A stretch of 64,000 bases of DNA from Escherichia coli (GCF_044324785.1 NZ_CP172127.1), one strand, 5' to 3'; shown: positions 20,133-20,230, numbered from the stretch's first letter. The notes: generated by a model from the sequence alone, not told the origin. Program-made: numbers and translations.

Positions 20133-20230
20133 CAGCGATAGCTTTGTGATTGGTCCGTTATTTTCTGGTTGATATTTGAGCGTATAACAGTGTTATACAG
20201 TGGTATACTGTATGGATATTACTCACTGAT

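What the first reader, a model, noticed from the sequence alone, without database searches (positions are those of the whole stretch)
20160..20225. Overlapping palindromic operator-like sites upstream of the RHH regulator gene
GTATAACAGTGTTATAC and ATACAGTGGTATACTGTAT overlap between iteron cluster 1 and the 20231 start codon. This is a likely autoregulatory operator for the RHH-type protein; paired imperfect palindromes (CTACGAAAATTTCGTAG and TTTACGAAAGTCTCGTAAA) also occur at 29632-29710 near cluster 2.
Basis: seen in the sequence. Interest (0 to 1): 0.3.

Follow-up and report, generated by a model that had tools for sequence, protein, structure and literature searches.

The report
Self-repression site of a satellite regulator
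The first palindrome is a real, cross-genus conserved DNA site where a small ribbon-helix-helix protein of an E. coli mobile island most likely shuts off its own promoter; this is an ordinary kind of switch, though the protein family is uncharacterised.

Summary
Both palindromes exist as described: GTATAACAgTGTTATAC at 20182-20198 and ATACAGT-GGTAT-ACTGTAT at 20195-20213. Such palindromes are common in this window, so the sequence alone proves little. Comparison with 44 related loci and 9 distant ones decides it. The only conserved island upstream of the gene is two 7-bp units, 10 bp apart, followed by an extended -10 promoter (TGnTAnAAT; TGgTATACT at 20201-20209 here).

There are two operator classes: GTATAAC-N3-GTTATAC (inverted) and GTCTTAC-N3-GTCTTAC (direct). 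They track residues 6 and 8 of the protein's N-terminal strand without exception (L/A 21 of 21, S/T 19 of 19). The exact motif occurs nowhere else in 641 kb of related DNA. The N-terminal domain matches CopG/RHH profiles.

My reading is negative autoregulation by promoter occlusion, confidence about 0.75. The second palindrome is mostly a by-product: it is the right operator unit plus the -10 element, and it is conserved only in close relatives. The likely start codon is 20243 (143 aa), not 20231. The TACGAAA palindromes at 29631-29707 are real but unrelated. This is a new member of a known kind, of modest interest.

The parts
20182..20198 (+). Operator core. Unit 1 is GTATAAC (20182-20188) and unit 2 is GTTATAC (20192-20198). 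They are inverted, with 10 bp from start to start, and centred about 26 bp upstream of the predicted transcription start.
   Evidence: Searches show the sequence. Searches show it is invariant in all 21 class-A sequences while the flanks diverge. One search shows covariation with strand residues L6/A8. One search shows the motif only upstream of this gene in 641 kb.
20201..20209 (+). Extended -10 promoter element TGgTATACT (the -10 hexamer TATACT is at 20204-20209). There is no recognisable -35 hexamer; the -35 position falls inside unit 1.
   Evidence: The consensus TGnTAnAAT lies 2-3 nt after unit 2, and 36 of the 40 sequences have the TG. It sits 28-34 nt before the start codon in the loci scored. 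The strict -35/-10 scan found nothing, which fits a -35-independent extended -10 promoter.
20203..20209 (+). Possible degenerate third unit, GTATACT (5 of 7 matches to unit 1), overlapping the -10 hexamer.
   Evidence: This is inference. The third base of the -10 hexamer tracks operator class: T in 19 of 21 class-A sequences (GTATAAT resembles GTATAAC), and A in 19 of 19 class-B sequences (GTAAAAT resembles the inverted unit GTAAGAC). Shared ancestry could also explain this.
20195..20213 (+). It is made of the end of unit 2, the extended -10 element and the first bases after it.
   Evidence: It is conserved only in the window, L002/L003 and L004. It is absent in Serratia, Buttiauxella, the Morganellaceae and all class-B loci.
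20216..20217 (+). Predicted transcription start, about 7 nt after the -10 hexamer, giving a 5' UTR of about 27 nt.
   Evidence: Inferred from the position of the -10 element. It has not been mapped.
20243..20674 (+). Gene for a 143-aa two-domain protein. The N-terminal part is an RHH domain (strand about residues 4-11, helices 13-25 and 30-42). A linker helix follows (50-69). The C-terminal part (75-143) is a three-to-four-helix domain resembling a recombinase-type HTH.
   Evidence: 372 homologues in Enterobacterales, mostly about 143 aa. (AlphaFold2: C-terminal domain pLDDT above 90; N-terminal helices present; strand disordered in the monomer). (CopG/RHH hits). (HTH_62/Recombinase hits, all below threshold).
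20008..20128 (.). Context only, not part of the operator. This is iteron cluster 1: GTTGGTTCA x3, then TGAACCAAC x3 at 21-bp spacing.
   Evidence: The iteron sequence changes with the primase, not with the RHH protein, and the iterons are absent upstream of the gene in many loci that keep the operator.

Best explanation
The 17-bp site at 20182-20198 is the operator of the gene that starts at 20243.

Anatomy. The gene encodes a 143-aa protein whose N-terminal ribbon-helix-helix domain pairs with a second copy to form a two-stranded sheet. That sheet reads the major groove of one 7-bp unit. Two dimers would then occupy the two units (GTATAAC and GTTATAC), which lie one helical turn apart.

Mechanism. 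The units fill the -35 position and the spacer of a -35-less extended -10 promoter (TGgTATACT, 20201-20209). A degenerate third unit may overlap the -10 hexamer itself. Bound protein should therefore keep RNA polymerase off the promoter, so the protein holds its own level constant (negative autoregulation).

The second palindrome. It is not a separate operator. It arises because the right unit, the TG motif and the -10 hexamer are all built from similar GTATAC/ACAGT-like sequence.

What is shown and what is inferred. Shown here: the sequence anatomy, its conservation, the covariation with the protein, the exclusive association with the gene, and the RHH profile matches. Inferred: binding, stoichiometry, the direction of regulation (repression), the transcription start, and any role of the C-terminal domain.
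For: (1) Footprint. In 40 sequences (the window plus 39 related loci) spanning more than 20 genera, the only conserved upstream island is unit - N3 - unit - 2-3 nt - TGnTAnAAT. Everything around it has diverged.

(2) Specificity covariation. Strand residues 6/8 = L/A go with GTATAAC-N3-GTTATAC in 21 of 21 sequences. S/T go with GTCTTAC-N3-GTCTTAC in 19 of 19. By alignment with the Arc repressor of phage P22, from my own knowledge of that structure, residues 6, 8 and 10 are the outward, DNA-facing positions, and F9 and V7 are core.

(3) Distant homologues fit the same pattern.
- L047 is 37% identical over the rest of the protein (residues 13 onward) and keeps L6/A8. It has two copies of TGTATAACAnTGTTATACAG.
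- The F6/A8 proteins (L051, L056, L053) have GATAAC-Nx-GTTAT(C).
- The S8 proteins (L050, L052) have GTATACGTGT[T/A][T/A]ACA.
- L048 has T at the position equivalent to residue 8, as class B does, and carries TCTTACAG.

(4) The exact operator motif occurs in 641 kb of related loci only directly upstream of copies of this gene. This includes a tandem duplication in L006 that carries the gene and operator together. In the 64-kb window there is one site, even allowing 3 mismatches.

(5) RHH identity. A profile of N-terminal domains hits CopG-family structures (7ak7_C, E = 5.5e-4; 6xrw_B across strand and both helices) and the RHH antitoxins MazE6 and VapB26. Pfam RHH_1 matches 7 of 14 members, and TacA1 reaches 3e-6. 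AlphaFold2 places helices at 13-25 and 30-42 after an unstructured strand segment, as expected for an RHH monomer.

(6) The site is centred between -35 and -10 of a conserved promoter, which is the usual position for repressors.

(7) Class A is retained across proteins more divergent from each other than class A is from class B. The operator is therefore under selection, not just young.
Against: - No experiment has been done; binding and repression are inferred.
- The operator and the strand codons lie only about 50-75 bp apart, so one recombination event would move both. Class B may have arisen only once. The perfect 40 of 40 association therefore represents few independent events.
- RHH matches are all below the curated Pfam thresholds, and the E. 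coli protein itself gives no Pfam RHH hit.
- AlphaFold2 confidence for the N-terminal domain is low (pLDDT 48-70), and whole-model fold searches were uninformative.
- The strict sigma-70 scan found no promoter here, and the E. coli Shine-Dalgarno sequence is weak.
- A site at this position with no -35 hexamer could in principle serve activation.
- In L047 and L048 the units are arranged differently relative to the putative promoter.
Confidence: 0.75

Rival explanations
1. There are two separate, overlapping palindromic operators. One protein dimer or tetramer binds GTATAACAgTGTTATAC, and a second binds ATACAGT-N5-ACTGTAT. This would give graded or cooperative control.
For: Both palindromes have perfect arms. 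The right arm, ACTGTAT, is conserved in Raoultella/Klebsiella (L002/L003) and in Pluralibacter (L004), even though the upstream flanks differ there. The -10 region resembles a unit in both classes, so extra protein contacts over the -10 hexamer are plausible.
Against: The second palindrome is absent from 17 of the 21 class-A sequences and from all 19 class-B loci, which instead conserve only TGnTAnAAT at that position. Its symmetry centre (20204) does not match the 7-bp unit register. Its half-site ATACAGT is not the conserved unit. Palindromes with 7-nt arms are frequent in the window (79).
Confidence: 0.12
2. The site is bound by the RHH protein, but the protein activates rather than represses. 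It would recruit RNA polymerase to a promoter that lacks a -35 hexamer (positive autoregulation).
For: No -35 match is present in either class. The site covers the -35 position, where class II activators sit.
Against: The conserved extended -10 element (TGn plus a near-consensus hexamer) normally makes a promoter independent of -35 and of activators. The units run up to 2-3 nt from the TG motif and possibly over the -10 hexamer, which would clash with sigma region 3/2 contacts. From general knowledge, characterised RHH regulators at such positions are repressors (Arc, Mnt, CopG, omega, and the RHH antitoxins).
Confidence: 0.08
3. The conserved site is recognised by a different factor: the divergently encoded PerC-family activator, the primase/initiator as part of the origin, LexA, or a host regulator. 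The RHH protein would have another target.
For: The site lies in a divergent intergenic region next to iterons. ACAGT/ACTGT motifs recall SOS boxes. A real LexA-like box exists elsewhere in the element.
Against: PerC is found in only 5 of the related loci and never adjacent to the gene. Iterons change with the primase (TGAACCAAC, TGAGACAAC, TGACACAC) while the operator does not, and many loci keep the operator without nearby iterons. There is no CTGT-N8-ACAG at 20160-20225. A host factor would not explain two operator classes tracking the strand residues of this protein, nor the exclusive association with this gene.
Confidence: 0.04
4. These are chance palindromes in AT-rich promoter DNA with no regulatory role, or they form an RNA or DNA hairpin.
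For: Perfect palindromes are common in the window. The units resemble -10 hexamers.
Against: Invariance across genera with scrambled flanks. Class B has direct repeats, so no hairpin is conserved. The first palindrome lies upstream of the predicted start. An 8-bp stem with a 1-nt loop cannot form as drawn.
Confidence: 0.01

Closest known systems
Arc and Mnt repressors of phage P22 (immI region)
   Same: They are small RHH proteins. Antiparallel strand residues at alternating positions read the DNA. Two dimers bind operator half-sites about one helical turn apart, overlapping a promoter, and give negative autoregulation. The element here also carries a P22-like gene block (gp14-gp7-gp20-gp16-sieA-like). 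(The P22 facts are from my own knowledge.)
   Different: There is no detectable sequence homology beyond the fold (only 1 of 14 members hits Pfam Arc, at E 0.098). The protein is about three times as long as Arc, with an extra linker helix and a conserved C-terminal HTH-like domain. The gene is monocistronic, with no ant-like target downstream. The operator units are different.
Omega repressor of pSM19035 (inc18 plasmids) and ParG-type RHH proteins
   Same: They recognise short 7-bp units that work in either direct or inverted orientation, with one dimer per unit. Here orthologues use inverted (class A) or direct (class B) 7-bp units in the same register. (The omega facts are from my own knowledge.)
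   Different: Omega heptads are contiguous (7-bp period) and number 7-10 per site. Here there are two, possibly three, units at a 10-11-bp period. No ParA-type partner or centromere array was found among the genes scanned. No sequence relationship was shown.
CopG (pMV158) and CopG-family regulators / RHH antitoxins (TacA, MazE6, VapB26)
   Same: These are the best sequence and profile matches for the N-terminal domain. The architecture is the same: an N-terminal RHH DNA-binding domain plus a C-terminal effector domain, repressing their own promoter.
   Different: There is no co-transcribed toxin or Rep gene. The downstream gene is convergent, and no neighbour is conserved across loci. The C-terminal domain is a folded HTH-like module, not a disordered toxin-binding tail.

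Membership tests
Ribbon-helix-helix (CopG/Arc/MetJ) DNA-binding domain | Sequence or profile similarity to RHH families | tested here: met
   A profile of 14 N-terminal domains hits the CopG-family structures 7ak7_C (E = 5.5e-4) and 6xrw_B, plus MazE6 and VapB26. Pfam RHH_1 matches 7 of 14 members (best 1.6e-4), TacA1 reaches 3e-6, and NikA-like matches 5 of 14. Every hit belongs to the RHH clan, but all are below the curated cut-offs, and the E. coli sequence alone gives none.
Ribbon-helix-helix (CopG/Arc/MetJ) DNA-binding domain | Strand-helix-helix topology, with alternating hydrophobic and polar strand residues and a G-x-S/T/N-type turn between the helices | tested here: inconclusive
   AlphaFold2 gives helices at 13-25 and 30-42 after an unstructured 1-12, with low pLDDT (48-70), as expected for a monomer of an obligate dimer. 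The pattern V7/F9 (invariant, hydrophobic) alternating with residues 6/8/R10, and the SGGDKT turn, fit the fold. No dimer model could be built.
Ribbon-helix-helix (CopG/Arc/MetJ) DNA-binding domain | Dimerisation and sequence-specific DNA binding through the two-stranded sheet | not testable with these tools
   This needs EMSA or footprinting, or a protein-DNA complex prediction. The only indirect support is the covariation of residues 6/8 with the operator class.
Autoregulated operator-promoter | A repeated recognition site overlapping the promoter of the regulator's own gene, conserved with the gene | tested here: met
   Two units plus the extended -10 element form the only conserved upstream island in the 40 sequences. 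The motif is found only upstream of copies of the gene.
Autoregulated operator-promoter | Demonstrated change in promoter activity in response to the regulator | not testable with these tools
   This needs a reporter assay.
LexA (SOS) box | CTGT-N8-ACAG with an AT-rich centre | tested here: not met
   No match lies in 20160-20225. The only matches in the window are the dinD box at 18980-18995 and a site at 29325-29340.
Type II toxin-antitoxin (RHH antitoxin) | An adjacent, co-transcribed toxin gene | tested here: not met
   The gene is monocistronic. The next gene (20691-21068) is convergent. No neighbour is conserved across the 44 loci or in the distant contigs.
ImmR/ImmA-type (or CapH/CapP-type) repressor-protease pair | A repressor gene adjacent to, and conserved with, the M78 peptidase gene | tested here: not met
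   The ImmA/CapP-like peptidase (21072-21560) has a homologue in only 1 of the 44 related loci. The RHH protein is not an HTH_XRE repressor.
Omega/ParG-type partition regulator | A partner ParA ATPase and arrays of contiguous heptads at several promoters | tested here: inconclusive
   No ParA-like hit appeared among the element ORFs scanned, and there is a single operator per element. Not every small ORF was scanned.

The most novel reading that the evidence does not exclude
The 143-aa protein may be more than a self-repressor. It could be the conserved regulator of an undescribed family of Enterobacterales integrative satellite-like elements. These elements carry a tyrosine integrase, AlpA, a C4/isrK RNA with Icd/Ash/AntA, a TOPRIM-DUF927 primase with P4-like split iteron origins, and a variable cargo bay. 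Its nearly invariant C-terminal recombinase-like HTH domain would sense or bind a conserved host or helper-phage partner, while the N-terminal RHH domain sets its dose. Independently of that, the family offers a natural series of specificity switches. Two strand residues (L6/A8, S6/T8, F6/A8, x/S8) re-target the protein to different 7-bp units, and unit orientation flips between inverted and direct without loss of function. That would be a compact, testable RHH recognition code.
Probability: 0.2. Interest if true: 0.55.

Novelty: new member of a known kind. Interest (0 to 1): 0.3.

Why it matters
On its own this is a textbook arrangement: an RHH protein sitting on its own promoter.

Its value is practical. 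It gives a precise, experimentally ready operator-promoter map (units, phase, -10 element, likely start codon) for an uncharacterised protein family present in about 10% of complete E. coli genomes and across Enterobacterales. It also offers a clean two-residue/two-base specificity swap that could be tested by mutagenesis.

It separates three kinds of repeats in this element that a sequence-only reading lumped together. The RHH operator tracks the RHH protein. The iterons track the primase. The TACGAAA palindromes are unassigned.

If the C-terminal domain proves to sense a helper phage or host factor, the protein would become an entry point into the biology of this satellite-like element family.

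Tried and rejected
- LexA box at the site: no CTGT-N8-ACAG there.
- RNA hairpin or terminator: the first palindrome lies upstream of the predicted start, class B is a direct repeat, and the terminator scan found nothing relevant.
- Part of the replication origin: the iterons covary with the primase, not with this site.
- PerC or ImmA partnership: neither gene is conserved with the RHH gene.
- Toxin-antitoxin reading: no co-transcribed partner.
- Known defence system: no PADLOC hit for the protein.
- Phage homologues: no DNA or protein match in 50,697 phage records.
- Full-length profile against PDB sequences: nothing.
- A universal DNA motif that the invariant C-terminal domain might bind: the k-mer survey of flanks found only the class-specific units, the iterons and Chi-like GCTGGTGG.
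- Attachment-site repeats: only a 12-mer (ATTATGTACACC at 19235 and 39716) was found, so the ends are not resolved.
- Footprinting the 29310-29760 region: E. coli copies are at least 95% identical, and other genera lack the region.
- Literature searches for this island or for satellites with ejection proteins found nothing relevant.

Full report
**Where the window comes from.** The window is E. coli chromosome. The finding lies inside an integrated element of about 20 kb. On its left is dinD, whose promoter and SOS box are at 18980-18995. On its right is yicC, at 39847-40710.

The element encodes the following:
- a tyrosine integrase (38405-39742, minus strand) and an AlpA homologue;
- an AntA-type antirepressor and an Ash-family protein;
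- a C4 antisense RNA and isrK (35072-35299, minus strand);
- a 919-aa Zn-ribbon/TOPRIM/DUF927 primase (29894-32653, minus strand);
- a P22-like block of gp14 (DUF2824), gp7, gp20 and a further protein with no Pfam match (whose A20 counterpart is annotated as a lytic transglycosylase), plus a SieA-like protein;
- an IS3 insertion and an ImmA/CapP-like M78 peptidase;
- a PerC-family gene (19684-19971, minus strand).

The gene of interest diverges from PerC across a 260-bp intergenic region. That region also holds iteron cluster 1.

**The observation.** Both palindromes are present and overlap by 4 nt. They are GTATAACA-G-TGTTATAC (20182-20198) and ATACAGT-GGTAT-ACTGTAT (20195-20213). The stretch can equally be read as three 10-bp tandem units.

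Taken alone, this is weak evidence. The window contains 35 perfect inverted repeats with arms of at least 8 nt and spacers of at most 6 nt (8.6 in shuffles), and 79 with 7-nt arms. The strict sigma-70 scan found no promoter in 19600-20800.

**The protein.**
- Length and start. RefSeq and about 370 homologues from Enterobacterales put the start at ATG 20243. This gives 143 aa beginning MSKSNLVAFR. Most homologues are 141-145 aa. In Raoultella/Klebsiella the sequence aligned with the window's ATGG at 20231 is part of a GGTGGA Shine-Dalgarno site.
- First searches. The protein has no Pfam hit above threshold, no PADLOC hit and no relative in isolated phages.
- N-terminal domain. A profile of 14 diverse N-terminal domains hits CopG-family structures and RHH antitoxins: 7ak7_C at E = 5.5e-4, and 6xrw_B aligned through the strand and both helices. 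Seven of the 14 members hit Pfam RHH_1, and others hit TacA1, NikA-like, RelB or Arc.
- Structure. AlphaFold2 places helices at 13-25 and 30-42 after a disordered strand segment, then a linker helix, then a confident C-terminal helical domain with pLDDT above 90.
- Conclusion. The RHH assignment is supported. The role of the C-terminal domain is open.

**Comparative footprint (the decisive evidence).** A genome-collection scan returned 44 related loci from more than 20 genera. I anchored the upstream regions on the second unit. In each of two classes, exactly one conserved island appears.

| Class | Members | Consensus upstream island |
|---|---|---|
| A: 21 sequences (window + 20 loci) | Escherichia, Raoultella/Klebsiella, Pluralibacter, Serratia, Buttiauxella izardii, Xenorhabdus, Photorhabdus, Morganella, Providencia, Proteus | ctGTATAACAnnGTTATACnnTGnTAtAaT |
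| B: 19 loci | Pantoea, Tatumella, Rosenbergiella, Mixta, Erwinia, Cedecea, Chimaeribacter, B. noackiae | TGTCTTACnntGTCTTACngTGnTAAAaT |

- The operator is therefore two 7-bp units, 10 bp from start to start.
- It is followed after 2-3 nt by an extended -10 promoter. The TG is present in 36 of the 40 sequences.
- The island lies 28-34 nt before the start codon in the loci scored.
- No -35 hexamer is recognisable. That position lies inside the left unit.
- The left unit is inverted relative to the right one in class A, which gives the palindrome. In class B it is direct.
- In the window the -10 element is TGgTATACT (20201-20209), which predicts a start near 20216.

**The second palindrome.**
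- Its left arm is the end of the right unit plus AGT.
- Its centre and right arm are the TG motif, the -10 hexamer and four further bases.
- It is conserved only in the window, L002/L003 and L004. It is absent in the other class-A sequences and in all of class B.
- I therefore treat it as a by-product of packing unit-like sequence into the promoter.
- One caveat applies. In both classes the -10 region resembles a unit: GTATAAT against GTATAAC in class A, and GTAAAAT against the inverted unit GTAAGAC in class B.
- The third base of the hexamer also tracks class, T in 19 of 21 class-A sequences and A in 19 of 19 class-B sequences.
- A weak third contact over the -10 hexamer is therefore possible.

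**Covariation with the protein.** Residues 6 and 8 of the strand are L/A in all 21 class-A sequences and S/T in all 19 class-B loci. By alignment with the Arc repressor, from my own knowledge, positions 6, 8 and 10 face the DNA. V7 and F9 are (nearly) invariant and R10 is invariant, with V7 and F9 forming the core.

More distant homologues were fetched by exact-protein look-up, and they follow the same logic:

| Locus or loci | Strand residues | Upstream units |
|---|---|---|
| L047 (37% identical over residues 13 onward) | L6/A8 kept | two copies of TGTATAACAnTGTTATACAG |
| L051, L056, L053 | F6/A8 | GATAAC-Nx-GTTAT(C) |
| L050, L052 | S8 | GTATACGTGT[T/A][T/A]ACA |
| L048 | T at the position equivalent to residue 8, as in class B | TCTTACAG |

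A tree built without residues 1-12 shows that the enterobacterial class-A proteins are closer to class-B proteins than to Morganellaceae class-A proteins. Class A has therefore been held constant over deep divergence.

There is a caveat. The operator and the strand codons are only 50-75 bp apart and would travel together in any recombination. The number of independent switches is therefore small.

**Exclusivity.** The exact motif of either class occurs in 641 kb of fetched loci only directly upstream of copies of this gene. One of these cases is a 1251-bp tandem duplication in L006, which duplicates gene and operator together. The 64-kb window has one site, even allowing three mismatches. The protein's only evident RHH target is therefore its own promoter.

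**Mechanism.** The best reading is negative autoregulation by promoter occlusion. Two RHH dimers would sit on units centred about 26 bp upstream of the start of a -35-independent extended -10 promoter. This is inferred, not shown.

The rivals are weighed in the structured sections of this report:
- two independent overlapping operators;
- activation rather than repression;
- binding by another factor;
- chance.

PerC, ImmA and LexA are excluded as partners by the lack of conserved linkage or motif. Membership of the origin is excluded because the iterons change with the primase while the operator does not. The iterons are TGAACCAAC here, TGAGACAAC in L045 and TGACACAC in L020.

**The other palindromes in the finding.** ACTACGAAAATTTCGTAGT (29631-29649) and TTTTACGAAAGTCTCGTAAAA (29687-29707) are real. 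They contain the only two TACGAAA heptamers in the window, 57 bp apart. They are probably a paired site for some dimeric protein.

They share nothing with the RHH units. They are found only in the E. coli form of the element, and they could not be footprinted, because E. coli copies are at least 95% identical. They remain unassigned.

**Comparison with what is known.**
- The arrangement works like Arc/Mnt of P22 or CopG of pMV158.
- Its tolerance of unit orientation recalls the omega repressor.
- The protein belongs to the RHH superfamily by profile evidence, but to none of those specific families.
- It fails the defining context of antitoxins, ParG/omega partition systems and ImmR-type repressors.
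- The family itself is unnamed and unstudied.

**Verdict.** This is a new member of a known kind, with interest of about 0.3.

Noticed in passing
window 20008-20128 and 29757-29870; L029 8420-8700, L010 10880-11150, L045 3180-3440, L020 7720-7950: There are two mirrored iteron clusters, GTTGGTTCA x3 and TGAACCAAC x3. One lies just downstream of the TOPRIM-DUF927 primase gene, the other beside the RHH gene. In related elements the iteron sequence changes with the primase (TGAGACAAC with a 73%-identical primase, TGACACAC with a 50%-identical one). This suggests a P4 alpha/ori/crr-like arrangement in which the primase binds the iterons.
   Followed up: partly
window 29321-29345 (box CTGTATAAAACAACAG at 29325-29340), minus-strand genes 29309 down to 24473: A LexA-box-like site (CTGT-N8-ACAG) sits immediately after a TATAAT hexamer on the minus strand. 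It is as good a match to the search pattern as the dinD box at 18980-18995. It lies upstream of a 53-aa ORF followed by P22-like gp14 (DUF2824), gp7, gp20 and a further 701-aa protein with no Pfam match. The ejection-protein cargo of this satellite-like element may therefore be SOS-inducible.
   Followed up: partly
window 29631-29649 and 29687-29707: Two perfect-arm palindromes share the half-site TACGAAA, the only two occurrences of that heptamer in 64 kb, 57 bp apart. They lie between the origin iterons and the LexA-type promoter. They are present only in E. coli copies of the element, and the binding protein is unknown.
   Followed up: partly
window 35072-35159 and 35222-35299 (minus strand): Rfam C4 antisense RNA (79.5 bits) and isrK (67.1 bits) lie upstream of or inside the Ash-family ORF, near an AntA antirepressor gene. 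An Icd-like gene is annotated at the same place in L057. The element seems to use a P1/P4-type RNA immunity module.
   Followed up: no
L057 (NZ_CP148430.1, 12,152 bp, circular): A record deposited as an E. coli plasmid is a minimal circular form of this element. It has the integrase, AntA, Icd-like gene, primase, small ORF, RHH gene and PerC, but no ejection-protein, ImmA or IS cargo. In the circle, PerC reads toward the integrase gene, presumably across the attachment site. This is a possible excised or replicating form, and it shows that the RHH gene belongs to the core of the element.
   Followed up: partly
window 18721-18991 versus L001 14261-14803; window 21642-22915: In this strain dinD carries a 543-bp internal deletion relative to strain A20. 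An IS3-family element (orfA/orfB) is inserted next to the ImmA/CapP-like peptidase gene. A20 instead has an ISL3 insertion between dinD and the element.
   Followed up: partly
window 21072-21560 (minus strand): The M78 (ImmA/IrrE) peptidase best matches the CBASS-associated CapP model in PADLOC (E = 4.9e-25). It has no obvious HTH partner next to it. The IS3 insertion lies immediately upstream and may have separated or destroyed the partner.
   Followed up: no
L006 6001-6429 and 7252-7680: Pantoea coffeiphila carries a 1251-bp tandem duplication containing the RHH gene with its operator and promoter. A 514-aa ORF whose N-terminus looks like a large serine recombinase lies just downstream (8350-9894, minus strand).
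   Followed up: partly
related loci, 5' UTR or up to 1.2 kb around the gene; window 29427-29434: The Chi octamer GCTGGTGG, or its complement, recurs near the RHH gene in 17 of 34 loci. In class-B loci it doubles as the ribosome-binding region (GCTGGTGGtcatTATG). In the window a Chi sequence sits in the stem of a minus-strand terminator-like hairpin (29412-29436, followed by a run of T on the minus strand). This may be coincidence or shared ancestry.
   Followed up: no
window 39701-39740 and 19235-19246: Repeats of (T)ATGTACA(C) lie next to the integrase gene start, and a matching 12-mer (ATTATGTACACC) lies near the opposite end of the element. These are possible integrase arm-type sites. The exact element ends were not determined.
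   Followed up: no
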